A stretch of DNA of 64,000 nucleotides from Pseudonocardiaceae bacterium (GTDB taxonomy: Bacteria; Actinomycetota; Actinomycetes; Mycobacteriales; Pseudonocardiaceae), in the NCBI GenBank assembly GCA_009379815.1, contig WHSY01000002.1:22074-86073 (forward strand), written 5' to 3'. Positions within the stretch are counted from its first letter, which is position 1; the number at the start of each line of letters is the position of its first letter. Positions 8,719-58,414 of the stretch are shown one piece after another. Made by a program: the position numbers and the translations under genes. Below the pieces are notes generated by a model. It was given only the letters and a program-made list of their open reading frames with translations. It was not told the DNA's origin and ran no database searches.

Positions 8719-11700
8719 GTGGAGACGGGCCGGCTGCGCCTGCGGTTGCTCGGGCGCTTCAGCGTCGAGGGTGACCTCGACGGCCCGCTCCCGAGCGGGA
8801 AGGCGCAGCGGCTGCTCAAGCTGCTCGCCGCCCATCACGGGCAGTTCGTCCCGGTCGACTCGGTGATCGATGCGCTCTGGGGCGACGATCCCCCGCAGCA
8901 CGCCGACCGCAACGTCGCCGTGCTCGTCAGCCGGCTGCGCCGTAGCCTCGGAAGCCGCCGCATCGACGGCGGGCCCAGCGGCTACCGGCTGGTGCTCGAC
9001 GAGCTCACCGTGGTCGACGTCTTCGAGGCCGAGGACCTGGTACAGGCCGCCGAGCGGGAACTGTCCCGGCGGATGTACGCATTGGCCGCGGTGAGCGCGG
9101 AACAGGCGATCAGGCTGCTGGCCGCAGGGCGCCCGCTCACCGACGAGCGCGAGGCGCACTGGGCCGAGGACCTGCAGCGGTTCTCCGAGCGGCAGCTGCG
9201 CCGGGCACGGGCCTGTGGCTGGACCGCGGCGCTGGAGCTCGGCGAGCACCGGACGGCGATCCAGTTGGCCGGTGACGCGGTGGCCGCCGACCCCCTCGAC
9301 GAGGAGGCATGCCGCGCGGTGATGCTCGGTTGCCAGCGTGACGGCGAGTCCGGCGCGGCGCTGGTGGCCTACAAGTCGCTTCGCGCGGCGCTGGCCGAGC
9401 AGCTCGGCAGCGATCCCTCCCCCGCCAGCCAGGCGCTGTTCCTGTCGATCCTGCGTTCCGAGGTTCCGGCGACCTCGTCGCGGTCCAGGTCCCCGGACGC
9501 TGCGGCCGAGCCGTCCCCGCTGGTCGGGCGCGATGCCGAGCTGGAGCGGCTGCTCGACCTGTGGTCGCGGGCCGTGAACGGTTGCGCTGCGGTGGGCCTG
9601 GTCGTCGGGGAGGCCGGGATCGGCAAGAGCGCGCTGGTCGGTGCCGTGGCTGACCAGGTGCGCCATACCGGCGGCCTGGTGCTGGCCACCGGCTGCTCCG
9701 AAGCCGAACGATCGTTGTACCTGCAACCCTTGGTCCAGGCGGTGCGCGAGGCGGTCGCGAGGTTCGACAAGCGCACGATCCGTGACCTAAGCGGGGAGTG
9801 GCTCGGCACGCTCATCGAGCTGGTCCCCGAGCTGGCCCGGCTGACGGGGCCGGTGGGCTACGAGCGGGTCGCGCCCGAGCTCGAACATCGCCGCAGCCTC
9901 GAGGCGCTCGCCGCATTCCTCGCCGGCGTGGCCGAGCGGCAGCCGGTCATGGTGACGATCGAGGACCTGCAGCACGCCGGCCAGTCGACGATCGAGGCGC
10001 TGCACTTCCTCGCCACCCGCTGGGAGCGCGAGCGGATACTCGTGGTCGCCACCGAACGCATGACGGAGGACCCACCTGCCGTGACCCCGCTGCGCGACCT
10101 CGCGTCGTGCCTGCAGCTGCGGCCGTTGCCGATGGCCGCGGTGACGACCCTCGTCGAGCACTCCGGGCTCTCGCTCGACCCCGGTCGGCTCTACGAGTGG
10201 ACCGGCGGGTCGCCGCTGTTCGTCACCGAGCTGCTGCGCCACCCGGGATCGGCCCGGACCGAGCGCATCGAGCTCGGGATCCCGGTCTCGCTGCACGAGG
10301 CGGTCGCGGAGCGGCTGGACCATGCCGGCGAGGACGTCGCACTGGTGCTGGCGCAGGGCGCGATCCTGGGGACGGCCTTCTCGCTGGCGGAGGTCGCCGC
10401 GCTGTCCGGGCTCGACGAGGAGGAGTGTGCGTGGCGGGCGGAACGGGCACTGCGAGCAGGCCTGCTCGTCGAGCGCGGGGACAGCTTCCGGTTCGCCAAC
10501 GACATCGTGCAGCAGGTGGCCTACGACTCGGTCCCGGAGCCGATCCGGATCAGCCGCCACCGCAGGGCAGCCAAGCTGTTCGACGCCCGGCCCGAGGCGG
10601 CCGCGCATCAGCTCGCCGCAGCACACGACTGGCCGGAGGCCGCCAAGGCGTGGCTGCTCGCGGCGCACGCCGCGCACCTCGCGTTCGCGAACCGAGAGGC
10701 CGATCGCCTGCTCACCGAGGCCCTCGGGTCGGCGGAGCGCTCCGGGGACCATGACCTGCTGGCCACCGTCCGGTTCCGTCGGGGCCAGATCCGCACCGAT
10801 CTCGGACGCCACGACGATGCGCGGACCGATCACGAGGGCGCGCTGGCGCTGGCCCGCGAACTCGGCGACGAGGAGCTGGAGGCGCGCGTCCTGGAGCAGC
10901 TCGGCTGGACGGCGCTCTACGCGCGTGACGCGCTGGTCGCGGTGGATCTGGCCGCGCGCGCCAGCCATCTCGCGGAGTCGGCGGCGGCCGCCCCGGGCGC
11001 ACTGCCCAGCTCCCAACTGCTGCTCGGCCGGACGCGGCACTGGGACGGCGACTACTCCGGTGCTGCCTCGGCCTACGAGCAGGTGCTGACCGCGGAGACG
11101 GGTGACACGACGACGGCGATCGCACTGGCGTACCGGGGAGCGCTGCTGCAGCACATGGACCGGTTCGCCGAAGCGCAGTCGGTGCTCGAACGCGCCGCCG
11201 TGCTCTGCCGCCGAAACGGGCAGTTCCGGCTGCTGCTGCAGACGCTGTTCTTCACCGGGCTCGCGCGCGGCGATGTCGGCGACTTCGAGGGCGCGCTGCG
11301 AGCACTGGGCCGGGCTCGGCGACTCCTCGACACCTACGGCGTCAGCTATTACCGCGCGGGGATCGACACCACCACCTCCTGGCTGTGGCAGGAGCTGGGT
11401 GATGTGGGCCGCGCCAGGGAGTACGCCGAGCGTGCGGTGGACCTCGCCCACCGCGGCGGGGGCGCACTCGAGCTGGAGCAGGAGCTGCATGCGCTGCTGG
11501 CGCTGGCCGACTGCGACCTGATGCTCGGGCACGATGACGACGCCGGGGCGCGGGTGGAGGCGGCCGCCCCGATGCTGGAGAAGTCGCTTCCGTTTCAGCC
11601 CCGCGCCACGATGCGGCTGCTGGAGATGCGCGCCCGGTGGGATCCGGGCCAGGCCGAGGCCCTGCTCGAGTACTCGAGGACCTACTCGTCGGCCAAGTAC

Positions 11701-25693: not shown

Positions 25694-25727
25694 ATCGGTG
25701 ATCAAACTGCATCGGTGATCAAACTGC
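25694..25727. repeat. Perfect tandem duplication of 17 bp (ATCGGTGATCAAACTGC x2)
   Basis: Read directly. The second copy contains the stop codon of the small ORF (25719-25721). Confidence 0.85.
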
Positions 25728-28060: not shown

Positions 28061-28797
28061 GCCGCTGCCGGCTCGAGCCCGAGACCCGGCTCCAGCCCGA
28101 GACCCGACTCCAGCCCGAATCGCAGCGCGCGGCCGGAGCTGGCCCCCACCCGGTCCAGCCTCGCGAGCGCCTGCGCGGCCCGCACGCGATCGCCGCCGGC
28201 CTGTGCGGCCAGCCAGCTGTGCGCCGGCTCGATGCACTGCCCCCTCGCGGCCCAGGCCAAGAACGCCGCGGCGACATCGGTCGTCACGACCGAGCCGGCG
28301 ACCGCGGCCAGCCCGGGTTCGGCTGCCGCGCCGTGCAGCGCTCGGGCTACCAGCAGCACGCCGGCCAGCACGTCGTCCCCGGAGGGTGTCAGGCCCGGCC
28401 CGCGCCCGCCGATCCTGCCTGCGAGCGCCGCGACACCATCGGACCGCAGCACCGGGCCGAGCCGATCGCCGGTCCCCGGCGGGTGCCGTCGCCGGTATCG
28501 CGCGAGCTCCTCGGCGCCCGGCAGCTGCCCGGTCCAGGTCGGCGCATCGAGGGGCACCGACCACTGCCGACCGTGCAACCCGGTCGGGTCGATGTCCACC
28601 GCGTCGCCCGGTGCCAGCTGCGGCAGCGTCGCCACCCGCAGGTGCAGCGGTCCGGACGGCGCGCGGCCGTCGGTCAGCGCCAGCAGGCCGGCCGGAAAGC
28701 GCAGGTAGGCCGCCGCCCGGTACACCGCGACCACCCGACCGGCCCCGCGGCGCCCCGCGACCCGGCGAGCACCCACACCGACGTCCAGCGTGGTCAT
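27976..28797 (-). CDS. DUF2877-like protein (YlbF/AllH-like)
   Basis: ATG 28797 overlaps the DUF1116 stop (ATGA), in frame with track ORF 27976..29316. GRGPGLTPSGDDVLAGVLL motif; ~273 aa as in YlbF. Its last 85 nt overlap the XRE-cupin gene on the opposite strand. Confidence 0.65.
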   Translation of the reverse strand: MTTLDVGVGARRVAGRRGAGRVVAVYRAAAYLRFPAGLLALTDGRAPSGPLHLRVATLPQLAPGDAVDIDPTGLHGRQWSVPLDAPTWTGQLPGAEELARYRRRHPPGTGDRLGPVLRSDGVAALAGRIGGRGPGLTPSGDDVLAGVLLVARALHGAAAEPGLAAVAGSVVTTDVAAAFLAWAARGQCIEPAHSWLAAQAGGDRVRAAQALARLDRVGASSGRALRFGLESGLGLEPGLGLEPAAAQLPGSEIHTALVSERPGFDQQYGRSVG

Positions 28798-32709: not shown

Positions 32710-34091
32710 GTCCACCTGCGCTGCGATGTCCACTCGGCGGCCTCGGCATCCCGGGCGGCATGCGCCCTGGCCAGCACCGTGTCGACCATGGTGGCGGCGG
32801 TGTCGATCGCGGGCCGCTGCATCCAGGAGCGCACGTCCGCGGCGCTGGCCACCCCGCGCTCGACCACCCCGCGCTCGACCAGCCCGCGACCCGGGTCGCC
32901 GCCGTCCTCGCGTAGCACCTCGTGCAGCAGCTGCTGGGCGCGATGCTTGCCGATCCGCGACGACAGCCCGGCCAGCACCCGCTCCGAGCTCAGCGCCTCG
33001 CCGTAGCGGTCGAGGTTGGCCGCCATCGCGCCGGCATCGACCTCGAGACCGGTGACCAGCTGTCGACCCAGCGCCAGCGCCGCCCCGGTCAGCAGGCATA
33101 CCTCGGGCAGTGCCGCCCACTCGGCCTTCCAGGCACGGCCGTCGCGCTCGCCGGCGGCGACCATCCCCTCGGTGAGCACCCCGGCCGAGGAGCGGGCCAG
33201 CCGGGCCAGCGTGTCGAGGTGCTCGCTGCCCTCGGGGTTGCGCTTGTGCGGCATGGTGATGCTGCTGACCGCGCCGGGTGGGGCGGCTTCCGCGAGCTCG
33301 CCGATCTCGGGCCGGGCGAGCTCGTAGACCTCGGCGCCGATCCGCGCGAGCGTGCCGGCGACCATCGCGAGCAGCTGGCCGAAGTCGGCGATGCGGTCCC
33401 GGCAGGTCAGCCACGAGATGCCGGGATCGGCCAGCCCCACCTCGGCGCAGAACATCCTGCGCAGCTCGGTGGCTGCAGGGCCGAAGAACCCCAGCGCGCC
33501 GACCGCGCCCCCGAGCTGGCCGACCAGCCAGCGGTCCCGGCCGTCGCGCAGCCGCTCGACGTGCCTGCGCACCTCGTCGGCCCAGGACGCAGCCTTGAGC
33601 CCGAAGGTGACGGGGGCACCCGGCTGGCCGTGGGTGCGGCCCGCCATGGCCGTGTCGCGGTGGGCGGCGGCCAGCTCGAGCAGTGACGCCTCGAGCGCGC
33701 GCAGGTCACGCCACACCACGGTGCCGACCTCGCGCATCACCACCCCGAACCAGGTGTCGGTGACGTCCTGGACCGTGACACCGAAGTAGACGTGCTCGCG
33801 GGCGTGCTCGGGCAGCACCCGCATCAGGCCACGGATGAGGCCCAGCGTCGAGTGCGAGGTCAGCCGGGTCTGCTCGGCCACGTAGTCCATGTCGAGCGCG
33901 TCGGCACGGGCAGCGGCGATCGCGTCGGCCGAGGCCGCCGGGATGATGCCCAGCCGGGCCTGCGCCCGAGCCAGCCCGGCCAGGATGTCGCACCAGGACT
34001 GCAGCCGGGCCCGCTCGTCGAACACCGCCGCGAGTTCCGGCGTGGCCCACAGGTGGGCGTACATGACCGAGTCGGTCAGGCGGGTGCCCAT
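32706..34091 (-). CDS. Adenylosuccinate-lyase / carboxymuconate-cycloisomerase-like enzyme (aspartase/fumarase superfamily)
   Basis: ATG 34091, in frame with track ORF 32706..34724. Signature VSSITMPHKRNPEGSE and MAGRTHGQPGAPVTFG; 461 aa. Confidence 0.8.
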   Translation of the reverse strand: MGTRLTDSVMYAHLWATPELAAVFDERARLQSWCDILAGLARAQARLGIIPAASADAIAAARADALDMDYVAEQTRLTSHSTLGLIRGLMRVLPEHAREHVYFGVTVQDVTDTWFGVVMREVGTVVWRDLRALEASLLELAAAHRDTAMAGRTHGQPGAPVTFGLKAASWADEVRRHVERLRDGRDRWLVGQLGGAVGALGFFGPAATELRRMFCAEVGLADPGISWLTCRDRIADFGQLLAMVAGTLARIGAEVYELARPEIGELAEAAPPGAVSSITMPHKRNPEGSEHLDTLARLARSSAGVLTEGMVAAGERDGRAWKAEWAALPEVCLLTGAALALGRQLVTGLEVDAGAMAANLDRYGEALSSERVLAGLSSRIGKHRAQQLLHEVLREDGGDPGRGLVERGVVERGVASAADVRSWMQRPAIDTAATMVDTVLARAHAARDAEAAEWTSQRRWT

Positions 34092-46555: not shown

Positions 46556-47428
46556 TTGTCTCGACACCGCTCCCCCGGCGGCAACAGACCCAGTACAGCC
46601 CTCGATACGGCACCCGCGCACGCCCGCGGCCATAGTCGAGGTGCGCACCGGCTCCCCCACCCCTCACCCAGCGCACGTGGCCGCGTCATGGTGGCCGCCG
46701 TCGCCGTTGGCGCCGTCACCGCCGCGGCCCAGGGACTCGACCCGGCCGGCGGTGACAAGCCGGCAGACACCACGCTGCTGGCCTTCGGCGGCGACGCCGC
46801 GGCGGGATTCACCGGAGTCGGCGGCGCCGCGCCCGCACCCGGGGTACTCCCGCTGCCCGACGTCATGCCGGTGACGCAGGACAGCGGCGTCCAGGACGTC
46901 GCGAGCCTGGCCAAAGGTCAGCAGCTCGCGGAGGAGCGTGCCGCCGCCGAGCGGGAGGCCGCCGAGCAAGCGGCCGCCGAACGCGCCGCCGCCGAGCGGG
47001 AGGCCGCCGCGGACGGTGCCTCGCAGCTGCCGGTATCGGCCGGCGAGGTCGTCAGGCCGGCTTCCGGGGAACTCACCTCGGGCTTCGGTTCCCGCTGGGG
47101 CTCGTCGCACAACGGCATCGACATCGCCAACGAGATCGGGACTCCGATCTACTCGACCACCGACGGGATCGTCGTCGAGTCCGGCCCGGCGAGCGGGTTC
47201 GGGATGTGGGTGCAGGTCGAGCACCCCGACGACACCATCTCGGTCTACGGTCACATCCACGACTCCCTGGTCTCGGAGGGCCAGCAGGTCAAGGCCGGCG
47301 AGCAGATCGCGACGATGGGCAACCGCGGCCAGTCGACCGGCCCGCACCTGCACTTCGAGATCTGGCAGAACGGCGACGAGAAGATCAACCCGCTGAGCTG
47401 GCTGCAGCAGTACGGCGTCGACATCTGA
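46556..47428 (+). CDS. M23-family peptidoglycan metalloendopeptidase
   Basis: 3' part of track ORF 45587..47428. TTG 46556 (GGAAGGG upstream) is tentative; ATG 46688 is the alternative. Catalytic motifs HNGIDIANEIGTPIYSTTDG and GQSTGPHLHFEI. Confidence 0.8.
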   Translation: MSRHRSPGGNRPSTALDTAPAHARGHSRGAHRLPHPSPSARGRVMVAAVAVGAVTAAAQGLDPAGGDKPADTTLLAFGGDAAAGFTGVGGAAPAPGVLPLPDVMPVTQDSGVQDVASLAKGQQLAEERAAAEREAAEQAAAERAAAEREAAADGASQLPVSAGEVVRPASGELTSGFGSRWGSSHNGIDIANEIGTPIYSTTDGIVVESGPASGFGMWVQVEHPDDTISVYGHIHDSLVSEGQQVKAGEQIATMGNRGQSTGPHLHFEIWQNGDEKINPLSWLQQYGVDI

Positions 47429-48278: not shown

Positions 48279-49580
48279 GTGAGTGTCGCCCCTACGGCGC
48301 GGGCAGGGGAAGCACAGTTCGTCACACTCCGGCGTCGATTGTCACCTGGGCGATGGCCGTTATGGTCCCAGCCGGGTCGAGTCGTCGCGCTCGTTCTGCT
48401 CGTCGACACACTCGCGGTCCTGCTCGCGGCGCTGGCCCTCCGGACTCCCACCACCCCGAAGGACGCGCTCGGCTTCGCCGTCCTCGCGGTCGGTGCGATC
48501 CTGCACCTGGAGGCGGCTCGCGGCATCGAGCGGCTGCGGGAAGTGGCATCCGAGGGCGTCGCCTACGTCAACCTCAAGGCGATGTGGAACTTCGCGGCCG
48601 TGCTGCTGCTGCCCCCGGCACTGGCCGTGGCGCTGGTCGCTGTGACCTACACGCACTGCTGGGTGCGTGTCACCCGTCGCACACCGCTCTACCGCAAGGC
48701 GTTCTCGGCGGCCACCATCGTGCTGGCCGGCGCGGCCGCGCTGCTCGTGCTCGCCGCGATCGACCCGCCGACGCGGCTGGGACTGGCGGAAGGTCCGGTC
48801 GGGCTGCTCGCGATGCTCCTGGCCGCGACGGCATTCTGGCTGGTCAACCATGGTCTCGTGGTTGGTGCCATCCTGCTGTCCCGGCCGGGAACGCGAATCC
48901 GCACCGCGATCGGTGAACCGAGTGACCAGCTGGTGCTGGCCGGTTCCATCGGGCTCGGCGTCGCCATCGCCTCGCTGATGAACAGCGAGTCGTGGCTGGT
49001 CGTGGTGCTCATGGTGTCGGTGCTCGCGCTGCACCGGGCCGTGCTGGTACCGCAGTTCCGCAACGCCGCGCGGCACGACCCGAAGACCGGTCTCGCCAAC
49101 TCCGTGTTCTGGCACGAGATGGCAGGCAAGGAGCTTGAACGCTCCCGGCGCACCGGCGTCCCACTGGGCATCCTGATGATCGACATCGATCACTTCAAGA
49201 CCCTCAACGACGGGCACGGGCACCTCGCAGGCGATGAAGTCCTCAAGGCCGTCGCCCGCGAGCTGCAGCAGCAGATGCGCCCGTACGACCTGGCCGGTCG
49301 CTTCGGCGGGGAGGAGTTCGTGCTGCTGCTGCCGGGCGTGGGTGCCGGTGAGGTCGGTCACGTCGCCGAGCGGATCCGGGCCCGGATCTCCGGGCTCGCC
49401 GTGCCGGTGCTCGGGCTCGACGGGAAGGCTTCGCAGCTCGACCACATCACCGTCTCGGTCGGCGCGGCGGTCGGCCCCGCCGACGCCGAGGAGCTCGACC
49501 GGCTGCTGCTGGCCGCGGACACGGCCCTGCTCCACGCCAAGGAGGCGGGACGCAACCAGGTCGTCCTCGCACCGTGCTGA
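48279..49580 (+). CDS. Membrane-anchored diguanylate cyclase (GGDEF domain)
   Basis: Track ORF 48219..49580; GTG 48279 chosen and the start is uncertain. About six hydrophobic helices, then DIDHFKTLNDGHGHLAGDEVL and RFGGEEFVLLLPG. Confidence 0.85.
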   Translation: MSVAPTARAGEAQFVTLRRRLSPGRWPLWSQPGRVVALVLLVDTLAVLLAALALRTPTTPKDALGFAVLAVGAILHLEAARGIERLREVASEGVAYVNLKAMWNFAAVLLLPPALAVALVAVTYTHCWVRVTRRTPLYRKAFSAATIVLAGAAALLVLAAIDPPTRLGLAEGPVGLLAMLLAATAFWLVNHGLVVGAILLSRPGTRIRTAIGEPSDQLVLAGSIGLGVAIASLMNSESWLVVVLMVSVLALHRAVLVPQFRNAARHDPKTGLANSVFWHEMAGKELERSRRTGVPLGILMIDIDHFKTLNDGHGHLAGDEVLKAVARELQQQMRPYDLAGRFGGEEFVLLLPGVGAGEVGHVAERIRARISGLAVPVLGLDGKASQLDHITVSVGAAVGPADAEELDRLLLAADTALLHAKEAGRNQVVLAPC

Positions 49581-49693
49581 ACGGTGCCACCGAAAATCCG
49601 GTGACGACGGTGCGGGCGCCGTGGGCAGCGCCGGTGATGGGCGGTTACGGTCCTGGAGGATCAGGGGGAGCAGCAACGTCAGGAGGGCACGGG

Positions 49694-52048
49694 ATGATCG
49701 ACGGCGGCGATCTTGGCGACCTGGACACCGCGGAGCTGCTCGCGAGGGCCGCCGCACTGCGCGACGTCAGACACGGCAGCCGAGTGACCTTCTCGCCCAA
49801 GGTGTTCGTGCCGCTGACGATGCTGTGCCGGGACCGCTGCGGTTACTGCACGTTCGCGCACGCCCCCCGGGAGCTGCCGTCGGCCTACCTCGAACCTGAC
49901 GAGGTGCTGGCGATCGCGCGCCGTGGCGCCGAGTTCGGCTGCCACGAGGCGCTGTTCACGCTCGGAGAGCGGCCCGAGGAGCGCTACTCGGCGGCCCGGG
50001 AATGGCTGGCGCAGCGGGGCTACACGTCGACCGTGGACTACCTGGTGGACGCCTGCCGGATGGTGGTCGAGGAGACCGGGTTGCTGCCGCACGCCAACGC
50101 CGGCGCGCTGCACCGTGACGACCTCGCCGTGCTGCGCGAGGTCACCGCGAGCCAGGGGATGATGATCGAGTCGCTGCGGTCGGGCCTGCGCGCCCACCGC
50201 GGCGCGCCCGACAAGGACCCGGCGCGGCGGCTGGCCACCCTGGAGTCCGCAGGCGAGCTCGCGATCCCGTTCACCACGGGCATCCTGGTGGGCATCGGCG
50301 AGACCGAGGCCGACCGGGTGTCGGCGCTGCGGGCCATCGCCGAGGCGCACCGCCGGCACGGGCACGTGCAGGAGGTGATCGTGCAGAACTTCCTGCCCAA
50401 GCCGGGCACGGCGATGCGCGACGAGCCCGCCTGCCCGCCCGAGGAGCATGCCCGAGCGATCGCGCTGGCCCGGCTCATCCTGCCGCCCGAGGTACACGTG
50501 CAGGCGCCGCCGAACCTGTCCGACGACCCGGCCGGGTTGCTCGCCGCCGGCCTCGACGACTGGGGCGGGGTCTCCCCCGTCACCGCGGATCACGTCAATC
50601 CGGAGCGGCCCTGGCCCGGCCTCGACGAGCTGCGGGGCGTGACCGAGTCGGCGGGTCACGTGCTGGCACCGCGGCTGACGATCTACCCGGAGTATGCGCT
50701 GGACCCGTCGCGGTGGCTCGACGAGGCGATGCACTTCCCGGTGCTCGACCGCTCCGACGCCGAGAGCCTGGGCCGCGACGATCCCGGCGCGGTGGTCCGA
50801 GAGGAGTCGCAGGACGCCGCGAACGTCGGCGACGGCGCCGAGGTCTCGCTGTCCGGTCGCCACTCCACCGCGTGGTACTCCGGATCCGACGCACCGCCGC
50901 CCGCCCTGCTACCCGGTCCGGCGAGTGCAGGCGGGGCGGTCGCGGAGGTGCTCGACGGGGTGCGCGCGGGCCAGGAGCCCGGTATCGACGAGCTGGTCAC
51001 GCTGTTCTGCGCGCGGGGGCCGGAGGTCGCCGCCGTGGCCGAGCTGGCCGACGAACTGCGCGCGGTGACCGTGGGCGACACCGTCACCTGGGTGGCCAAC
51101 CGCAACATCAACTACACCAACGTGTGCACCTTCCGCTGCCGCTTCTGCGGGTTCTCCAAGGGCAAGCTGTCACTGAACCTGCGTGGCGCGCCCTACCTGC
51201 TCGAGCACGAAGAGATCATCGACCGCGTGCTGGAAGCGCAGCAGCTCGGCGCCACCGAGGTGTGCCTGCAGGGCGGCATCCATCCCAGCTTCGACGGCGA
51301 GTACTACCTTTCGGTGTGCCGGGCGATCCACGAGGCGGCACCGGGGATGCACATCCACGGCTTCACCGCGCTGGAGGTCACCGAGGGCGCCCGCCGGCTC
51401 GGCGAGCCGCTCGCCGACTACCTGGCCCGGCTGCGCGAGGCGGGTCTGAAGACGCTGCCCGGCACCGCCGCCGAGATCCTCGACGATGAGGTGCGCGCGG
51501 TGCTGTGCCCCGACAAGATCGATACCGAGGAGTGGCTCGAGGCACACCGGGTGGCGCATTCGGTGGGCCTGCGCTCCAACGTCACGATGATGTTCGGCGC
51601 CATCGAGCAGCCGGTGCACTGGGCGCGGCACCTGGTACGCACCCGGGACTTGCAGCGCGAGACGGGAGGGTTCACCGAGTTCGTCGGGTTGCCGTTCGTG
51701 CACATGGCCACCCCGATGTACCTCAAGCGCGCCGCCCGCCGCGGGCCGACCTGGCGGGAGGTGCTGCTGGTGCACGCCGTGGCGCGGATCGCCTATCGCG
51801 GCCTGATCGACCACGTGCAGGCGTCCTGGGTCAAACTCGGCGCCAGCGGCGCCCGGCAGCTGTTGCAGGCAGGGGTGGACGACCTCGGCGGCACGCTGAT
51901 GGACGAGAACATCAGCCGGGCTGCAGGCGCGAGCCATGGGCAGGGCCTCGACGAGGCGGGGTTCCGCGCGATCGTCGCGCCACTCGACCGGCCGCTGGCG
52001 CAGCGCACCACCCTCTACGGGCCGATCGAGCCGCTGCCCGTCGGATAG
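49694..52048 (+). CDS. fbiC: Bifunctional FO synthase (CofG+CofH fusion) for coenzyme F420
   Basis: Track ORF 49574..52048; ATG 49694 with AGGAGGG upstream. Two radical SAM motifs, CRDRCGYCTF and CTFRCRFCGF. Confidence 0.9.
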   Translation: MIDGGDLGDLDTAELLARAAALRDVRHGSRVTFSPKVFVPLTMLCRDRCGYCTFAHAPRELPSAYLEPDEVLAIARRGAEFGCHEALFTLGERPEERYSAAREWLAQRGYTSTVDYLVDACRMVVEETGLLPHANAGALHRDDLAVLREVTASQGMMIESLRSGLRAHRGAPDKDPARRLATLESAGELAIPFTTGILVGIGETEADRVSALRAIAEAHRRHGHVQEVIVQNFLPKPGTAMRDEPACPPEEHARAIALARLILPPEVHVQAPPNLSDDPAGLLAAGLDDWGGVSPVTADHVNPERPWPGLDELRGVTESAGHVLAPRLTIYPEYALDPSRWLDEAMHFPVLDRSDAESLGRDDPGAVVREESQDAANVGDGAEVSLSGRHSTAWYSGSDAPPPALLPGPASAGGAVAEVLDGVRAGQEPGIDELVTLFCARGPEVAAVAELADELRAVTVGDTVTWVANRNINYTNVCTFRCRFCGFSKGKLSLNLRGAPYLLEHEEIIDRVLEAQQLGATEVCLQGGIHPSFDGEYYLSVCRAIHEAAPGMHIHGFTALEVTEGARRLGEPLADYLARLREAGLKTLPGTAAEILDDEVRAVLCPDKIDTEEWLEAHRVAHSVGLRSNVTMMFGAIEQPVHWARHLVRTRDLQRETGGFTEFVGLPFVHMATPMYLKRAARRGPTWREVLLVHAVARIAYRGLIDHVQASWVKLGASGARQLLQAGVDDLGGTLMDENISRAAGASHGQGLDEAGFRAIVAPLDRPLAQRTTLYGPIEPLPVG

Positions 52049-52825: not shown

Positions 52826-54826
52826 ATGCGGTACCTGGTCACCGGGGGGACCGGCTTCCTCGGCCGCCACGTGCTGGCCCGCCTGGTGTCACGGCAGGAC
52901 TGCGACGCGGTCACCGTGCTGATCCGCGAGGCATCGCGGGACCGGCTTACCCGGCTCGCGGCCCGTCTCGACGGCGGCGAGCGCATCAGGCCGGTGGTCG
53001 GCGACCTCACCGCACCCGACCTGGGGCTGCGCCAGGCCGACCTCGACGAGCTGACCGGTGTCGACCACGTGGTGCACCTCGCCGCGATCTACGACCTCGC
53101 GGCGGGCGAGGAGGCCAACCGCAAGGCCAACGTGGACGGAACCGGCCGGGTGGTCGAACTCGCCACCCGGGTCGGCGCGGGCTGCCTGCACCACGTGTCC
53201 TCGGTGGCTGTGGCGGGGGACCATCCGGGCCGCTTCACCGAGGCCGACTTCGACACCGGCCAGGGGTTGCCCTCGCCGTATCACGCCACCAAGTTCGCAG
53301 CCGAGGCGCTGGTGCGGGAATCGGCGACGCCCTGGCGCGTCTACCGGCCGGCGGTGGTGGTCGGCGACTCGCGCACCGGGGAGATGGTCAAGGTCGACGG
53401 GCCCTACTACCTGCTGCCCGCGATCGCGTGGCTGGCGTCACTGCGCGCTCCGGCCCCGGTGCCGATGCCGATGCCGCTGCCGGACCTCGGCGCGACGAAC
53501 ATCGTGCCGGTCGACTACGTGGCCGACGCGCTGGTCGAGCTGGCGCACCGGCCCGGGCTCGACGGTCGCGCGTTTCACCTCGTCGCGCCACGGCCACAGG
53601 GCATGGTGGAGGTCTATGACGCCTTCGCCCGCGCGGCCGGGGCGCCACGGGCCAGCACCGTACTGCCGGGGGCCGTGAGCCGGCCGCTGCTCGGGCTGGC
53701 CGGGGCGGCAGGGGGGCTGCTCGGCCGGCTGCCGGGCGCGGACTCGTTGCGGTCGGCGGCGCTGGCCGAGCTGGGCGTCCCCGAGGAGGTCCTGCCGCAC
53801 CTGACCTTCCGCCCGGTGTTCGACAGCACGGCCACCCAGGCGGAGCTCGCGGGCAGCGGCATCCGGGTGCCGGATCTGTCCGAGTACGCATCCGTGCTGT
53901 GGGGCTACTGGGCGCGCCACCTCGACCCGTTGCGGCCCCGGCTGCCCCGGCCGGGCGGGCCACTGGCGGGGCGCCGGGTGGTCGTCACGGGAGCGTCGTC
54001 GGGGATCGGGCGCGCCACCGCACTGCAGATCGCCGAGCGTCACGGCGTACCGCTACTGGTCGCGCGGCGCGCCGAGGAGCTCGAGGAGGTCCGCGCCGAG
54101 ATCGAGCGCGGTGGCGGGCAGGCGCACGTCTACTCCTGCGACATCACCGAACCCGAGTCCGTGGACGAGCTGATCAAACAGCTGCTCGCCGACCACGAGA
54201 GCATCGACATGCTGGTCAACAACGCCGGCCGCTCGATCCGCCGCTCGGTGCGGCTGTCCTACGACCGCATGCACGACTACGAGCGCACCATGGCGGTCAA
54301 CTACTTCGGCGCCGTGCGGCTGACCCTGGGCCTGCTCCCGCACATGACGACCCGGCAGTTCGGCCACATCGTGAACATCTCCTCGATCGGAGTGCAGACC
54401 AACACCCCCCGCTTCTCCGCCTACGTGTCTTCCAAGGCAGCGCTCGATGCGTTCGCGCGGGTGGTGGCCAGTGAGACCTACGGCAACGGCGTCACCTTCA
54501 CGATCGTGCACATGCCGCTGGTGCGCACCCCGATGATCGAACCCACCAAGATCTACCGAGCGTTCCCGGCCGCCACTCCGGAGGAAGCTGCCGGGATGGT
54601 GGTTCGCGCGCTCGAGCAGCGCCCCAAAGAGATCAGCACAGCGCTGGGCACCGCCGGGGCGATCGCCTACACGGTCGCGCCGCGGCTCACCGATTCCCTG
54701 CTGCACGTGGCCTACCGGGTCTTTCCCGATTCCCCCTCCGACCGCGAATCCGAGACCGACGAGAGCACCGCGCTGACCCGCGGCGCCAGGGCCATGATCC
54801 GGCTGCTCCCGGGTGTGCACTGGTGA
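52826..54826 (+). CDS. Two-domain SDR: N-terminal fatty-acyl-CoA-reductase-like domain + C-terminal classical short-chain dehydrogenase (AcrA1/FcrA-like)
   Basis: ORF 52826..54826. MRYLVTGGTGFLGRHV (extended SDR) and VVVTGASSGIGRATA...YVSSKAAL (classical SDR). Confidence 0.8.
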   Translation: MRYLVTGGTGFLGRHVLARLVSRQDCDAVTVLIREASRDRLTRLAARLDGGERIRPVVGDLTAPDLGLRQADLDELTGVDHVVHLAAIYDLAAGEEANRKANVDGTGRVVELATRVGAGCLHHVSSVAVAGDHPGRFTEADFDTGQGLPSPYHATKFAAEALVRESATPWRVYRPAVVVGDSRTGEMVKVDGPYYLLPAIAWLASLRAPAPVPMPMPLPDLGATNIVPVDYVADALVELAHRPGLDGRAFHLVAPRPQGMVEVYDAFARAAGAPRASTVLPGAVSRPLLGLAGAAGGLLGRLPGADSLRSAALAELGVPEEVLPHLTFRPVFDSTATQAELAGSGIRVPDLSEYASVLWGYWARHLDPLRPRLPRPGGPLAGRRVVVTGASSGIGRATALQIAERHGVPLLVARRAEELEEVRAEIERGGGQAHVYSCDITEPESVDELIKQLLADHESIDMLVNNAGRSIRRSVRLSYDRMHDYERTMAVNYFGAVRLTLGLLPHMTTRQFGHIVNISSIGVQTNTPRFSAYVSSKAALDAFARVVASETYGNGVTFTIVHMPLVRTPMIEPTKIYRAFPAATPEEAAGMVVRALEQRPKEISTALGTAGAIAYTVAPRLTDSLLHVAYRVFPDSPSDRESETDESTALTRGARAMIRLLPGVHW

Positions 54827-54936
54827 CCGCCGACGCACTCTTCTCCGCGGAGGCGGCATCGTGACCGCCGACGCACTCTTCTCCGCGGAGGCGGCATCGT
54901 GACCGCCGACGCACTCTTCTCCGCGGAGGCGGCATC
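54823..54936. repeat. 38-bp unit GTGACCGCCGACGCACTCTTCTCCGCGGAGGCGGCATC repeated three times in perfect tandem
   Basis: Copies at 54823-54860, 54861-54898 and 54899-54936 (read directly). Copy 1 starts inside the reductase stop (GTGA). The next unit begins the acyl-CoA synthetase gene (GTGACCGCCGAgg). Confidence 0.9.
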
Positions 54937-56535
54937 GTGACCGCCGAGGACCCGCGGCTCACCGCCCGCAGCCTGGCCCTGCTGGTGAGCTCCGGGGTGC
55001 TCGCGCCGATGCGACCGGACCGGCTGGTGGGCTCGGTGGCCGCGCTTGCCCGCTACCGGCTCACCGTGGCCACCGGCTACGCGGCGGGAGCGGCCCGCCA
55101 CCCGGACCGTCCGGCCGTCATCGACGAGCGGGGGACGCTGACCTACCGGCAGGTCCACGAGCGTTCCGACCGGCTGGCCCGCGCGCTGGCCGATCGCGGA
55201 ATCGGGGCCTGCAGCCGGGTGGCGCTGCTGTGCCGCAACCACCGTGGCCCCGTCGAGACGATGGCCGCGTGCGCCAAGCTCGGCGCCGACGTGGTGCTGC
55301 TCAACACCGGCCTGTCGGCCGAGCAGCTGCATGCGGTGCTCGGCGAGCAGCGCGCCGACCTGGTGGTGGTCGACGAGGAGTTCGCCCCGGCGCTGGAGGC
55401 CGGCTATCCGACGGTGCTCGGCTGGACCGACGGCCACGGCAACGCGGCGGACCTGGAGGGCCTGATCGACGCGGGCGGCGGCGTGGCGCTGCCGGTTCGC
55501 CCGACGCTCGGCCGGCTCATCGTGCTCACCTCGGGCACCACGGGGACGCCCAAGGGCGCGCGGCGCCCCAGCCCCAAGGGGCTCGGCCCTGCCGGGGCGA
55601 TCCTGTCCCGGATCCCGCTGCGCGCGGGCGAGCCGGTGCTGCTGGCTGCGCCGCTGTTCCACGCCTGGGGTTTCGCCGGCTTCCAGCTCGCGTTCCTGCT
55701 CGGGGCGCCGCTGGTGCTGCACCGGCGGTTCGACCCGGGCCAGGCGCTACGTGCCGTCGGCGATCACCGGGTGGCGACGATCATGGCTGTGCCCGTGATG
55801 CTGCAGCGGATCCTCGAGCTCCCCGACGCGGAACTCGACGCCGCTGCGACGAGCACGCTGCGTGTGGTCGCGGTGAGCGGCTCGGCGCTGTCGGCCCAGC
55901 TCGCCGGGCGCTTCACCGACCGGTTCGGGCCGGTGCTCTACAACCTCTACGGCTCCACCGAGGTCTCGTGGGCGAGCATCGCCACACCGCTGGACATGCG
56001 CACCGCACCGGGGACGGTCGGCCGTCCCCCGCTCGGCACGACGCTGCGGATCATGGGCGAGGACGGTCGGCCGGTCCCCGACGGCGAGATCGGCCGGATC
56101 TTCGTCGGCAACGACATGCTCTTCGAGGGCTACACCCGCTCGGGCACCGGCACCGACGTCGTGAACGGGTTGATGGGCACCGGCGACCTCGGGATGGTCG
56201 ACGCCCACGGGCTGCTGCACGTCACGGGACGCAGCGACGACATGATCGTCTCCGGTGGGGAGAACGTGCACCCGGGCCAGGTCGAGGAGCTGGCCTCGCA
56301 GTGGCCGGAGGTGCGCGAGGCGGCGGTGACCGGCGTCGACGACCCGGATTTCGGGCAACGGCTGGCGGCCTACCTGGTGCTGGCACCCGGTGGCGACCTC
56401 GACGCCGACACGGTGCGCGACCGGGTGCGTTCCCGGCTCGCCCGCTTCGCGGTCCCCCGCGACGTGCACTTCGTCGACGAGCTGCCCCGCAACGCCACCG
56501 GCAAGGTCGACAACCTGCGGCTCCGCCGCCCGTGA
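54937..56535 (+). CDS. AMP-dependent acyl-CoA synthetase/ligase (FadD-like)
   Basis: ORF 54937..56535. LTSGTTGTPKGA and GDLGMVDAHGLLHVTGRSDDMIVSGGENV motifs. Confidence 0.85.
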   Translation: MTAEDPRLTARSLALLVSSGVLAPMRPDRLVGSVAALARYRLTVATGYAAGAARHPDRPAVIDERGTLTYRQVHERSDRLARALADRGIGACSRVALLCRNHRGPVETMAACAKLGADVVLLNTGLSAEQLHAVLGEQRADLVVVDEEFAPALEAGYPTVLGWTDGHGNAADLEGLIDAGGGVALPVRPTLGRLIVLTSGTTGTPKGARRPSPKGLGPAGAILSRIPLRAGEPVLLAAPLFHAWGFAGFQLAFLLGAPLVLHRRFDPGQALRAVGDHRVATIMAVPVMLQRILELPDAELDAAATSTLRVVAVSGSALSAQLAGRFTDRFGPVLYNLYGSTEVSWASIATPLDMRTAPGTVGRPPLGTTLRIMGEDGRPVPDGEIGRIFVGNDMLFEGYTRSGTGTDVVNGLMGTGDLGMVDAHGLLHVTGRSDDMIVSGGENVHPGQVEELASQWPEVREAAVTGVDDPDFGQRLAAYLVLAPGGDLDADTVRDRVRSRLARFAVPRDVHFVDELPRNATGKVDNLRLRRP

Positions 56536-56583
56536 GTGGCGATGCGAGCTATAGCTCGTCTATAGCTCGCATCGCCACTCACG
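56531..56583. repeat. Hairpin with 24-bp perfect arms (loop CTCGT) of the CGTGAGTGGCGATRCGAG family
   Basis: CGTGAGTGGCGATGCGAGCTATAG-CTCGT-CTATAGCTCGCATCGCCACTCACG read directly. The TGA inside the left arm (56533-56535) is the stop codon of the acyl-CoA synthetase. Confidence 0.85.
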
Positions 56584-56605
56584 ACCTGTCCACAGCTGGG
56601 CTACG

Positions 56606-57754
56606 GTGCGCGTGATGCATGTCGCGGAGCTGTTCGCCCCGCCTGCCGAGGTCGCGGCGCACCCCGCCGTCACGGCGGCCCGGCGGCTGTGCGACGAGCT
56701 GCTCGAACCACACGCGGCGGCCGCCGACGATCCGGCACGCGGGGTGCGGCGCGAGCACCTCGACGCGCTGGCCGACGCCGGTCTGTTCTCGATGACGGTG
56801 CCCACCGACGAGGGTGGGCTCGGCGCATCGGCCGCGGTGGACCGCGAGGTCATCGAGCTGCTCGCCGGCGCATGCGGCGCGACCTGGTTCGTGCTCACCC
56901 AGCACGAGACACCACAGAACCTGGTCCGTGGGCGGCTGCCGCCAGACCCGGACGCCGCGACCGCCGGTCCCGCCGCCACGCGGCATCACCAGGCATTGTG
57001 CGACGGCAGCGCGCTGGCCGGGATCGCGCTGGCCCACCTGCGCCGCCCCGGCCCACCCGCGGTGACCGCCGAGCCCGACGGCCGTGGCGGCTACCTGATC
57101 TCCGGCCGGTCCGACTGGTGCACCGGCTGGGGCCTGGTCGACGTGCTGCTGCTCGCCGCCACCGGCCCGGACGGCGAGGTGGTGTTCGGGCTGATCGAGG
57201 CCACCGAGCGAGCCGGGCTGCGGCCCGGTGCACCGCTGCCGCTGGCGGTGATGGGCGGCACCGCCACCGTCGCGCTGGAGTTCGACCGGTGCCGGTTGGG
57301 CGCCGACGAGGTCGCGCTCACCATGCACGCACGTGCGTGGCCGGAGCTCGAGGCGGTCCGGAGCGCGAACACCAGGCCTGCCTCGCTCGGGCTGCTGCGC
57401 CGGATGCTCGTCGAACTGGAACGGCTCGGCCACGAGCACGACCGGCCGGAGGGTGTCGAAGCGGCACTCGAACTCGTGCGGGTCGCCGTCCCGCTGCGGG
57501 CCGAGGCCTACGCGCTGCTCGACACCCCGGCGCGGGTGCACATCGCGCGGCGCACCCAGCTGCGGGGAACGCTCGCCGAGCTGACCGTGCGCGCCGCCGC
57601 CGCGCTGGTCGCCACCCGGTCCGGGTCGGCCATGCTGTCGACCAGTCCGGAGCAGCGCTGGGCACGGGAGGCGGCGTTTCACCTGGTGCAGGCCCAGAAC
57701 CCGGCGGTGCGCACCGCCCAGCTCGGCGCGCTCGCGCGGGGCAAGGAGGTGTGA
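56606..57754 (+). CDS. Acyl-CoA dehydrogenase-family protein
   Basis: ORF 56606..57754. HLDALADAGLFSMTVPTDEGGLG and the ACAD-like domain order; the catalytic base was not identified by eye. Confidence 0.7.
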   Translation: MRVMHVAELFAPPAEVAAHPAVTAARRLCDELLEPHAAAADDPARGVRREHLDALADAGLFSMTVPTDEGGLGASAAVDREVIELLAGACGATWFVLTQHETPQNLVRGRLPPDPDAATAGPAATRHHQALCDGSALAGIALAHLRRPGPPAVTAEPDGRGGYLISGRSDWCTGWGLVDVLLLAATGPDGEVVFGLIEATERAGLRPGAPLPLAVMGGTATVALEFDRCRLGADEVALTMHARAWPELEAVRSANTRPASLGLLRRMLVELERLGHEHDRPEGVEAALELVRVAVPLRAEAYALLDTPARVHIARRTQLRGTLAELTVRAAAALVATRSGSAMLSTSPEQRWAREAAFHLVQAQNPAVRTAQLGALARGKEV

Positions 57755-58414
57755 GTGAGCTACCCCGGCGGCGACCTGCGCGACCAGCTCGCCCACGTCG
57801 GTGCCGAGGCCGTGCGGACCGGGCTGGTCATCGGGTCCGGCGGTAACCTCTCCGCCCGCGAGCCCGGCCAGGACGCCTGCTGGGTCACCTCGTCCGGCAG
57901 CTGGCTCGACCGGCTCGACCGGGGCGAGTTCTCGTTGCTGGCGATCCCCGGCGGCGAGGTGCGAGACGGGCGGCCGACGCCGTCGTCGGAGTGGCGGCTG
58001 CACACCGAGACCTACGCGCGGCGCCCCGACGTCAACGCGGTCATCCACCTGCACCCGCAGACCAGCGTGCTGCTGTCCGCGCTGGGCCACGACGTCGCAC
58101 TGCTGACCACCGACCACGCCTACTACCTGCGCGAGGTCGCCACGGTCGGCTTCGACCAGCCCGGCACCGCCGACCTCGCGGTCACGGCAGCCGAGGCGGT
58201 CGCAGGCGGGGTCAACGCGCTCGTGCTGGGACACCACGGCTGCTCGGTGCTCGCCGACACGGTCGAGCTCGCACACAAGCGGGCGTTCAACCTCGAGGAG
58301 GCGGCGCGCGCGACGTACTCGGCGCTGCTGCTGACCGGCGACGACGGGTCCCGCATCCCGCGCGTGCCGCAGCGCTTCCTCGACGCGGTGCGCACGGGTG
58401 AGGCCTCGGCGTGA
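57755..58414 (+). CDS. Class II aldolase/adducin-family protein
   Basis: ORF 57755..58414; GTG lies directly after the ACAD stop. GSGGNLSAR, SSEWRLHTETY, VIHLHPQ motifs. Confidence 0.8.
   Translation: MSYPGGDLRDQLAHVGAEAVRTGLVIGSGGNLSAREPGQDACWVTSSGSWLDRLDRGEFSLLAIPGGEVRDGRPTPSSEWRLHTETYARRPDVNAVIHLHPQTSVLLSALGHDVALLTTDHAYYLREVATVGFDQPGTADLAVTAAEAVAGGVNALVLGHHGCSVLADTVELAHKRAFNLEEAARATYSALLLTGDDGSRIPRVPQRFLDAVRTGEASA

What the first reader, a model, noticed from the sequence alone, without database searches (positions are those of the whole stretch)
54823..54940. Triple perfect 38-bp tandem repeat creating three identical SD + GTG + 13-codon mini-ORFs chained by GTGA overlaps ahead of the acyl-CoA synthetase
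Seen:
- GTGACCGCCGACGCACTCTTCTCCGCGGAGGCGGCATC occurs three times without a mismatch (54823-54936).
- Each copy contains GGAGG 8 nt before the next GTG.
- Each copy encodes V/M-TADALFSAEAAS-stop, and its TGA overlaps the next GTG.
- The first GTG overlaps the TGA of the upstream reductase gene.
- The fourth GTG (54937) starts the real acyl-CoA synthetase, whose first 11 nt equal the repeat start.
- 38 is not a multiple of 3, so the copies cannot be read through as one protein.

Inference:
- This is either a recent slippage or duplication of the translation-initiation region, or a termination-reinitiation relay that tunes the reductase:synthetase ratio.
- Copy number may be phase-variable.
Basis: seen in the sequence. 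Interest (0 to 1): 0.65.

Follow-up and report, generated by a model that had tools for sequence, protein, structure and literature searches.

The report
MIRU-like intercistronic repeat in Pseudonocardiaceae
The three identical 38-base copies between two fatty-acid genes are real and belong to a small repeat family found at many gene junctions in uncultured Pseudonocardiaceae; each copy carries its own ribosome-binding site, start and stop, as the MIRU repeats of tuberculosis bacteria do.

Summary
Each copy holds GGAGG, a GTG start and a 13-codon ORF, and all joints are GTGA stop/start overlaps.

This is not a duplication of this gene's own initiation region. The same unit lies at 8 or more unrelated gene junctions in metagenome and MAG contigs of uncultured Pseudonocardiaceae, including nuoL>nuoM, pyrC>carA and P450>FAD oxidoreductase. 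It is always co-oriented with the flanking genes and always chained by NTGA overlaps. Length variants of 32, 41, 53 and 113 nt all stay at 2 mod 3.

At the orthologous reductase>synthetase junction, relatives carry 0 copies (direct stop/start overlap), 1 copy or a remnant. Copy number also differs at two other loci, in one case between strains 99.8% identical.

The architecture matches an M. tuberculosis MIRU array fetched for comparison, but there is no significant sequence similarity. Best reading: a MIRU-like dispersed intercistronic minisatellite, tolerated because it keeps translational coupling, and recently expanded here from 1 to 3 copies by slippage. That the mini-ORFs act as a translational relay is inferred, not shown. 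The copy number in the window cannot be checked without reads.

The parts
52826..54826 (+). Upstream gene: 666-aa fusion of a fatty acyl-CoA reductase-type domain (NAD_binding_4) and a short-chain dehydrogenase (adh_short). Its TGA (54824-54826) overlaps the first unit's GTG.
54823..54860 (+). Repeat unit 1 (38 nt). Mini-ORF 1 is GTG 54823 to TGA 54862-54864 (VTADALFSAEAAS). GGAGG at 54849-54853.
54861..54898 (+). Repeat unit 2, identical to unit 1. Mini-ORF 2 is GTG 54861 to TGA 54900-54902. GGAGG at 54887-54891.
54899..54936 (+). Repeat unit 3, identical to unit 1. Mini-ORF 3 is GTG 54899 to TGA 54938-54940, overlapping the synthetase GTG. GGAGG at 54925-54929 serves as the synthetase's Shine-Dalgarno sequence.
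54827..54856 (+). Predicted hairpin of one unit: CCGCC/GGCGG plus CGC/GCG, with a variable loop. The same hairpin is predicted at +38 and +76. Its 3' arm covers part of GGAGG. Support is weak.
   Evidence: -17.6 kcal/mol, z about -1.3 to -1.8; 95.8% of cells paired, one compensatory C-G>A-U event
54937..54947 (+). The 11 nt GTGACCGCCGA that are both the synthetase start and the first 11 nt of the unit. This is the direct repeat that allows slippage.
54937..56535 (+). Downstream gene: 532-aa AMP-binding acyl-CoA synthetase. The start at GTG 54937 agrees with the homologues' N-termini (MTENPLLTARS...).

Best explanation
The array is three tandem copies of a 38-nt dispersed intercistronic repeat of an uncultured Pseudonocardiaceae lineage. 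It is built like the mycobacterial MIRUs.

One unit was inserted into an ancestral direct stop/start overlap between the reductase and synthetase genes. In the window's lineage it then expanded from 1 to 3 copies by slipped-strand mispairing or unequal recombination between direct repeats.

Each unit has three parts: an RTG start that overlaps the preceding TGA, a GGAGG 7 nt before the next start, and a TGA that overlaps the next start. Unit length is 2 mod 3.

The inferred mechanism runs as follows. A ribosome ending the upstream gene re-initiates on the mini-ORF, translates 13 codons and terminates on top of the next start. This repeats until the ribosome is handed to the synthetase. Insertion and copy-number change would therefore leave operon translation largely intact, and this is why the element persists at gene junctions.

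Shown here: dispersal, orientation, conservation of the architecture, copy-number variation, and empty versus filled sites.
Inferred only: that the mini-ORFs are translated, that coupling is preserved, and any quantitative effect of 3 copies versus 1.
For: 1. Dispersal.
- A metagenome scan with a unit pattern gave 10 contigs. None is at the reductase/synthetase junction.
- With L101 and a second site on L090 they make 8 further distinct loci: nuoL>nuoM, dihydroorotase>carA, PTPS>glycosyltransferase, P450>FAD_binding_2, an unnamed gene>GFO_IDH_MocA, ABC ATPase-like>permease-like (named from the sequences, not scanned), and the leaders of a ROK-like gene and of a BNR-like gene (same basis).

2. 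Architecture.
- In all 9 loci the units are co-oriented with the genes.
- Where there is an upstream gene, the first start overlaps its TGA.
- Every unit's TGA overlaps the next start (NTGA).
- A long ORF starts at the last RTG, with a Pfam domain confirmed at the five junctions scanned.
- Start-to-start distances of 38, 41, 41, 53 (a +1 and a +14 indel that compensate each other), 113 (three units fused in frame) and 32 are all 2 mod 3.

3. History at this junction.
- The outgroup relatives (70-71% aa identity) and two relatives at 80-83% have 0 copies with a TGATG or GTGA overlap.
- L083 and L085 have 1 copy.
- L084 has a remnant.
- The empty site CACTGGTGACC|GAGAAT in L081 compares with the filled site in L083, where a 38-nt insert sits between two GTGACC.

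4. The family is older than this insertion. MAG GCA_973786485.1 has an empty reductase/synthetase junction (L089) but 2 units at pyrC>carA (L101).

5. Copy number varies.
- PTPS>GT: 1 copy versus at least 2, with flanks 99.8% identical over 622 nt.
- pyrC>carA: 1 versus 2 copies, which share a locus-specific G at unit position 8.

6. A real MIRU array (M. tuberculosis senX3-regX3, L100) shows the same design: ATGA overlap with the senX3 stop, TGATG between units, and 77 = 2 mod 3. A 2025 review describes MIRUs as inserting at start codons with -4 coupling (PMC12548453).
Against: - No expression data exist. Translation of the mini-ORFs and re-initiation are inferred from sequence alone.
- The first GTG (54823) has no good Shine-Dalgarno sequence upstream, so entry into the chain depends wholly on termination-reinitiation.
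- The search pattern required RTGACC after the unit, so 'always at a start codon' is partly built into the sample. The overlap with the upstream stop, the orientation and the long downstream ORF were not required. The site found by profile search alone (L090b) follows the same rule.
- Only 9 loci are known, and no whole-genome census was possible.
- No insertion mechanism or enzyme was identified.
- Hairpin support is weak (z -1.3 to -1.8, and a single compensatory event).
- The copy number 3 in the window cannot be verified without reads.
Confidence: 0.78

Rival explanations
1. A purely local event: recent slippage duplicated this synthetase's own translation-initiation region, with no connection to anything else in the genome.
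For: The three copies are identical, and the unit shares 11 nt with the start of the gene. Slippage between these repeats is the likely route from 1 to 3 copies.
Against: Near-identical units occur at 8 unrelated loci. Relatives with 0 copies show that the 27-nt core is not part of the ancestral initiation region. A MAG with an empty junction here has the unit elsewhere.
Confidence: 0.07
2. An adaptive, phase-variable rheostat. Copy number changes at high frequency within populations, and each added termination-reinitiation step lowers (or, through the added GGAGG, raises) synthetase output relative to the reductase.
For: Copy number differs between near-identical strains at another locus. In M. 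tuberculosis, tandem-repeat copy number varies within isogenic populations at 10^-2 to 10^-3 per chromosome and is linked to expression phenotypes (PMC12817950). Coupling efficiency depends on spacing and structure (PMC12548453).
Against: The same unit sits in housekeeping operons (nuo, pyr), where tunability is not obviously useful. Nothing ties copy number to a phenotype. The design looks made to be neutral. There are no read data for heterogeneity.
Confidence: 0.12
3. An assembly artefact: the true locus has 1 (or 2) copies, and the assembler traversed a repeat loop too many times.
For: Tandem repeats longer than the assembly k-mer form loops whose copy number short-read assemblers can misjudge. 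One related contig (L097) ends inside an array.
Against: The 125-nt array is shorter than common read lengths. Arrays of 2-3 units appear in several independent assemblies (L091, L092/L095, L093, L098, L101). Assemblers more often collapse repeats than expand them.
Confidence: 0.08
4. The unit is kept for a function other than coupling. Candidates are a DNA operator (the palindrome CTCCGCGGAG), an RNA hairpin that stabilises or processes the mRNA, or a functional 13-aa peptide.
For: There is a 10-nt perfect palindrome and a predicted hairpin in which the stems are conserved and the loop varies. Conservation is at nucleotide level, including third codon positions.
Against: The peptide varies at positions 7-8, and the changes between the orthologous units at this junction (window, L083, L085) are mostly non-synonymous. 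Hairpin z-scores are not significant. There is no Rfam match and no promoter or terminator. None of these functions explains why every unit keeps the NTGA overlaps and a length of 2 mod 3.
Confidence: 0.1

Closest known systems
Mycobacterial interspersed repetitive units (MIRUs; Supply et al. 1997, cited in PMC12548453), e.g. the senX3-regX3 array of M. tuberculosis (L100 1355-1593)
   Same: - Short units in head-to-tail arrays, dispersed over many loci.
- Lie between co-oriented genes of operons.
- Each unit holds a small ORF whose start overlaps the upstream stop and whose stop overlaps the next start.
- Unit length is 2 mod 3 (77 versus 38).
- A purine-rich Shine-Dalgarno-like tract precedes the next start.
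- Copy number is polymorphic.
- A terminal unit is sometimes fused in frame to the downstream gene (RegX3 in L100; the permease-like gene at L090b).
- Both begin with RTGACC...GCCGACG.
   Different: - No significant sequence similarity: nhmmer finds no hit at E<=10, and the best blastn match is 8 nt.
- The unit is 38 nt, against 77 nt in the array fetched here.
- Joints between units are -4 (NTGA) rather than -1 (TGATG).
- The host is uncultured Pseudonocardiaceae, not Mycobacterium.
Ordinary translational coupling through -4 (NTGA) or -1 (TGATG) stop/start overlaps
   Same: The ancestral reductase/synthetase junction is such an overlap (L081 GTGA; L086-L089 TGATG). Every joint of the array is an NTGA (review PMC12548453).
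   Different: Here three tiny ORFs with no evident product of their own are placed between the two genes, so coupling would need four successive re-initiations.
Miniature inverted-repeat or REP-type elements (MITEs, REP/BIME)
   Same: A small dispersed non-coding-sized element with an internal inverted repeat (CCGCC/GGCGG, CTCCGCGGAG). Comparing the filled and empty sites shows a 6-nt direct repeat (GTGACC) at the two ends.
   Different: It has strict orientation, strict reading-frame architecture and tandem amplification. No transposase partner or classical terminal inverted repeats were identified. REP and MITE elements are not known for carrying chained start/stop overlaps.
Variable-number tandem repeats near genes in M. 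tuberculosis (promoter tandem repeats, PMC12817950)
   Same: Copy number varies between strains through slippage, and this may influence expression of the downstream gene.
   Different: Those repeats act at promoters. This unit lies inside an operon, at the translational junction.

Membership tests
MIRU (mycobacterial interspersed repetitive units) | Short unit (tens of bp; published range recalled as about 46-101 bp) in head-to-tail arrays | tested here: inconclusive
   The unit is 38 nt, with variants of 41 and 53 nt, in arrays of 1-3. This is just below the range I recall for MIRUs. The fetched MIRU array has 77-nt units.
MIRU (mycobacterial interspersed repetitive units) | Dispersed at many separate loci of a genome | tested here: met
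   There are 9 distinct loci across contigs, and two separate loci on the single contig L090. A whole-genome count was not possible.
MIRU (mycobacterial interspersed repetitive units) | Located between genes of an operon, in the same orientation as the flanking genes | tested here: met
   All 9 loci are co-oriented. Seven lie between two genes and two lie in the leader of a gene.
MIRU (mycobacterial interspersed repetitive units) | The unit contains a small ORF whose start and stop overlap those of the neighbouring ORFs | tested here: met
   Every unit is chained by NTGA overlaps. The same check on a real MIRU array gives ATGA and TGATG.
MIRU (mycobacterial interspersed repetitive units) | Copy-number polymorphism between strains (VNTR) | tested here: met
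   This junction has 0, 1 or 3 copies. PTPS>GT has 1 copy versus at least 2, with 99.8% identical flanks. pyrC>carA has 1 versus 2 copies.
MIRU (mycobacterial interspersed repetitive units) | Sequence similarity to MIRU units | tested here: not met
   The nhmmer profile of 11 units finds no hit at E<=10 against the senX3-regX3 MIRU region. The best blastn-short match is 8 nt (E 0.36). Only one MIRU locus was compared.
MIRU (mycobacterial interspersed repetitive units) | Host is a Mycobacterium | tested here: not met
   The closest named relatives of the flanking genes are 'MAG: Pseudonocardiaceae bacterium'. The genome-collection hits are Pseudonocardiaceae genera.
MITE | Terminal inverted repeats plus a target-site duplication; derived from an IS element | tested here: inconclusive
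   There is an internal inverted repeat (CCGCC/GGCGG) and a 6-nt direct repeat GTGACC at the filled site compared with the empty site. But RTGACC is part of every unit, no parent IS is known, and none could be searched for.
Leader-peptide transcription attenuator | A short ORF followed by alternative hairpins and an intrinsic terminator before the regulated gene | tested here: not met
   No terminator-like site lies in or after the array. There is no Rfam leader family. The unit also sits between housekeeping genes.
CRISPR array | Repeats separated by unique spacers of similar length | tested here: not met
   The units abut directly, with no spacers.

The most novel reading that the evidence does not exclude
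The 38-nt unit is an actively mobile element that specifically targets RTGACC start codons, either by a dedicated single-strand or hairpin-recognising enzyme or by template switching on the RTGACCGCC microhomology. MIRUs share the RTGACC...GCCGACG 5' end. Together they would define a wider class, spread across the Actinomycetota, of intercistronic genetic parasites that survive by carrying their own start, Shine-Dalgarno sequence and overlapping stop, so that operon translation is relayed through them. Copy number would then be a general, heritable dial on downstream gene expression.
Probability: 0.25. Interest if true: 0.78.

Novelty: new variant of a known kind. Interest (0 to 1): 0.6.

Why it matters
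MIRUs are used worldwide for typing tuberculosis strains, yet their origin, their means of spread and their effect on expression remain poorly understood. They have been treated as a peculiarity of mycobacteria.

An unrelated-looking 38-nt family with the same self-contained design (start overlapping a stop, Shine-Dalgarno sequence, stop overlapping the next start, length 2 mod 3) in another actinobacterial family points to a general solution for lodging a repeat inside an operon without breaking it.

This family also offers things that help study:
- empty, single-copy and multi-copy states of the same junction;
- compensating indels that reveal what is under selection;
- a very small unit that is easy to test in reporter constructs for multi-step termination-reinitiation.

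On the practical side, gene callers do not annotate these mini-ORFs, and arrays like this can mislead start-codon calls and short-read assemblies.

Tried and rejected
- Exact-protein look-ups of the two window genes found nothing.
- The genome-collection scan with the reductase reached only relatives at 68% identity or less. Just two kept the gene order, and both have ordinary 60-210-nt spacers without repeats, so they say nothing about the ancestral state.
- Rfam gave only chance-level matches.
- No promoter-like site lies in 54500-55200. The one terminator-like site (minus strand, 54634-54653) is outside the array.
- The viral contig collection has no copy of the unit.
- The hairpin is predicted consistently, but its energy is not distinguishable from shuffles (z -1.3 to -1.8), and only one compensatory event supports it. 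I therefore do not build the explanation on it.
- Homology to MIRUs was tested against a real MIRU array and not found.
- A functional peptide was considered and set aside, because the variable positions are non-synonymous.
- Minus-strand ORFs across the array are open, as is usual in 72% G+C DNA. They have no support.
- Literature searches found no description of such repeats in Pseudonocardiaceae. The library is incomplete, so this is not proof of novelty.
Full report
**1. The observation**

The sequence at 54823-54936 is three perfect copies of GTGACCGCCGACGCACTCTTCTCCGCGGAGGCGGCATC, followed by GTGACCGCCGA. TRF reports period 38, 3.3 copies, 100% matches and score 250, by far the strongest array in the window. 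A search allowing 3 mismatches finds exactly these three copies in 64 kb, with none expected in shuffles.

The upstream ORF, 52826-54826, is a 666-aa NAD_binding_4 + adh_short fusion. The downstream ORF, 54937-56535, is a 532-aa AMP-binding enzyme.
- GGAGG lies 7 nt before each following GTG.
- There are three 13-codon ORFs (VTADALFSAEAAS).
- All four joints are GTGA overlaps.
- Every forward frame is closed by a TGA within the array.

**2. The orthologous junction in relatives**

The genome collection holds only distant relatives (68% identity or less). Two of them keep the gene order, and both have plain spacers without repeats.

A protein search found synthetases at 80-83% and 70-71% identity, and I fetched their contigs. 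The junctions are as follows:

| Locus | State of the junction |
|---|---|
| L088, L089 (70-71%) and L086/L087 | Reductase TGA overlaps the synthetase ATG (TGATG): 0 copies |
| L081 | CACTGGTGACCGAGAAT, a GTGA overlap: 0 copies |
| L083 | One unit (GTGACCGCCGAAGCACTCCTCTCCGCTGAGGCGGCATG), then GTGACCGAG |
| L085 | One unit (GTGACCGACGAAGCACTCCGCTGCGCTGAGGCGGCATC), then ATGACCGAG |
| L082 | A 32-nt start-to-start segment of dissimilar sequence, which still forms a GTG...TGA mini-ORF overlapping both genes |
| L084 | Reductase lost; its first 11 codons are fused in frame to the unit's 3' end and the synthetase |

The ancestral state was therefore a direct stop/start overlap, and the unit is a later insertion. 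L081 compared with L083 is an empty versus filled site that differs by exactly 38 nt lying between two GTGACC.

On a rough NJ tree, the unit-bearing taxa do not form a clade separate from the 0-copy taxa. This implies either one gain with later losses or several gains.

**3. The unit is a dispersed family**

A metagenome scan with a pattern covering the three known unit variants returned 10 contigs. None is at the reductase/synthetase junction. A profile search confirmed these hits and found a second, diverged site on L090. It found nothing in about 80 ten-kb loci from Amycolatopsis, Actinophytocola and related genera.

The contexts, with Pfam support for the first five:
- nuoL>nuoM: 2 units
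- dihydroorotase>carA: 1 unit
- PTPS>glycosyltransferase: 1 unit, or at least 2
- P450>FAD_binding_2: 3 units
- an unnamed gene>GFO_IDH_MocA: 2 units
- ABC ATPase-like>permease-like (named from their sequences, not scanned): 1 unit plus one fused to the downstream gene
- two gene leaders, before a ROK-like gene and a BNR-like gene (same basis)

CarA of L096 is closest to 'MAG: Pseudonocardiaceae bacterium' (86%) and to Streptoalloteichus (80%). The G+C content of all these contigs (0.70-0.74) matches the window's (0.72).

The pyrC>carA junction of MAG GCA_973786485.1 carries 2 units (L101). The same MAG has an empty reductase/synthetase junction (L089). The family therefore existed before the insertion at the window's locus.

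**4. What is conserved**

In every unit at all nine loci:
- the start overlaps the previous TGA wherever there is an upstream gene;
- the unit's own TGA overlaps the next start;
- the last RTG opens a long ORF, with a Pfam domain confirmed at the five junctions scanned.

The length variants are informative:
- 41 nt occurs twice, by an added codon.
- 53 nt in L092 comes from a +1 and a +14 indel that together restore the frame.
- 113 nt in L093 comes from two junctions that lost both start and stop and gained 1 nt, giving one in-frame 38-codon ORF that still ends in ATGA.
- 32 nt occurs in L082.

All are 2 mod 3. Under unconstrained indels, each would keep this property with a probability of about one third.

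In contrast, the peptide varies at positions 7-8 and the differences between the orthologous units at this junction are mostly non-synonymous, while most other columns, third codon positions included, are invariant or nearly so. What is kept is the chain of starts and stops and the nucleotide sequence, not a protein.

A hairpin (CCGCC/GGCGG plus CGC/GCG, -17.6 kcal/mol) is predicted in nearly all variants, and its 3' arm covers part of GGAGG. Its energy is within about 1.3-1.8 sd of shuffles, and only one compensatory event supports it. I treat it as possible, not established.

**5. Copy-number dynamics**

- L094 and L097 share 622 nt of flank at 99.8% identity but carry 1 unit and at least 2 units respectively.
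- pyrC>carA has 1 unit in L096/L099 and 2 in L101. All of them share a locus-specific G at unit position 8, which indicates local duplication on an inherited copy.
- In the window the three copies are identical, and the unit's first 11 nt recur at the gene start. The expansion from 1 to 3 copies is therefore recent, and slippage or unequal recombination explains it simply.
- The exact number cannot be verified without reads.

**6. Comparison with what is known**

The design matches what is described for MIRUs: short mobile repeats that insert at start codons, so that an ORF within the repeat is coupled to the gene with -4 spacing (PMC12548453, citing Supply et al. 1997).

To test this rather than recall it, I fetched the senX3-regX3 region of M. 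tuberculosis (L100). It has 3.1 copies of a 77-nt unit, ATGA at the senX3 stop and TGATG between units. 77 is 2 mod 3, and the last unit is fused in frame to RegX3.

The architecture is the same, but there is no significant sequence similarity. Both units do begin with RTGACC...GCCGACG.

The element therefore works like a MIRU but fails two membership tests, sequence and host. No paper describing such repeats in Pseudonocardiaceae was found in the library.

**7. Mechanism and its status**

Shown by comparison:
- insertion into a stop/start overlap;
- dispersal;
- strict co-orientation;
- conservation of the start/stop chain;
- tandem expansion and contraction.

Inferred from the known behaviour of -4 and -1 overlaps (PMC12548453):
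- Ribosomes terminating on the reductase re-initiate at 54823, translate 13 codons and terminate on the next GTG.
- This repeats twice more, and the ribosome then starts the synthetase at 54937.
- GGAGG helps each re-initiation.

The net effect of three copies, whether attenuation, neutrality or gain, is unknown. Because the unit sits in the nuo and pyr operons, I favour near-neutrality by design over a dedicated regulatory role.

**8. Verdict**

- The array is a member of a new MIRU-like repeat family.
- Novelty: a new variant of a known kind.
- Interest: moderate to high.

Noticed in passing
window 56532-56584 (and the ORF 56532-56615): A perfect 24-bp-stem hairpin (GTGAGTGGCGATGCGAGCTATAG CTCGT CTATAGCTCGCATCGCCACTCAC) begins at the synthetase stop codon. 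Its RNA fold is -65.6 kcal/mol with z = -7.6. It is unique in the window and absent from the 100 loci held at that point. A 27-codon ORF (GTG 56532 to TGA 56613) spans it, with GTGA overlaps at both ends, the second at a possible start of the acyl-CoA-dehydrogenase-like gene. This may be a second, unrelated relay-type intercistronic element.
   Followed up: partly
L084 4001-4050 (GCA_973418515.1): The reductase gene is deleted in this relative. Its first 11 codons (MRYLVTGGTGF) are fused in frame to the 3' end of the repeat unit (GAGGCGGCTGCA) and to the synthetase, giving a 550-aa product.
   Followed up: partly
L090 reverse strand, oriented 10200-10273 (locus coordinates 4338-4411): A diverged 38-nt subfamily (ATGAGGCCCGCCGACGTGCTTTCCTCCGCGGAGGCGGT) lies between ABC ATPase-like and permease-like genes (named from their sequences only). 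The second unit has lost its end and now supplies the first 12 codons of the permease (MKPADVLSSAEA...). In the fetched M. tuberculosis strain the last MIRU is likewise fused to RegX3.
   Followed up: partly
L093 5309-5424: This is a variant array with period 39. The unit junctions have lost both GTG and TGA (ATCGTGACC > ATTATTTCCG). The three units are therefore read as one 38-codon ORF with a threefold peptide repeat, which still ends in an ATGA overlap with the downstream gene, read as a secreted BNR-type protein but not scanned.
   Followed up: partly
window 54934-54939: The database's own gene call for the window's synthetase (P0001, 533 aa, MVTAEDP...) starts one codon upstream of GTG 54937, at ATC 54934. 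This suggests the repeat confuses start-codon calling. Homologues in other assemblies likewise carry differing N-terminal extensions.
   Followed up: no
window 49574-52048; 56606-57754; 57755-58414: The neighbourhood holds a two-domain radical-SAM FO-synthase-like gene (FbiC type) upstream. Downstream are an acyl-CoA-dehydrogenase-like gene and a class II aldolase gene that abut with no spacer. Part of this order is kept in relatives L082 and L085.
   Followed up: no
window 25694-25727, 28068-28118, 32849-32888, 46943-47009: These are other short tandem repeats with high identity (17 nt x2 at 100%; 18 nt x2.8; 15 nt x2.7; 15 nt x4.5). They are unrelated in sequence to the 38-nt unit and were not examined.
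   Followed up: no
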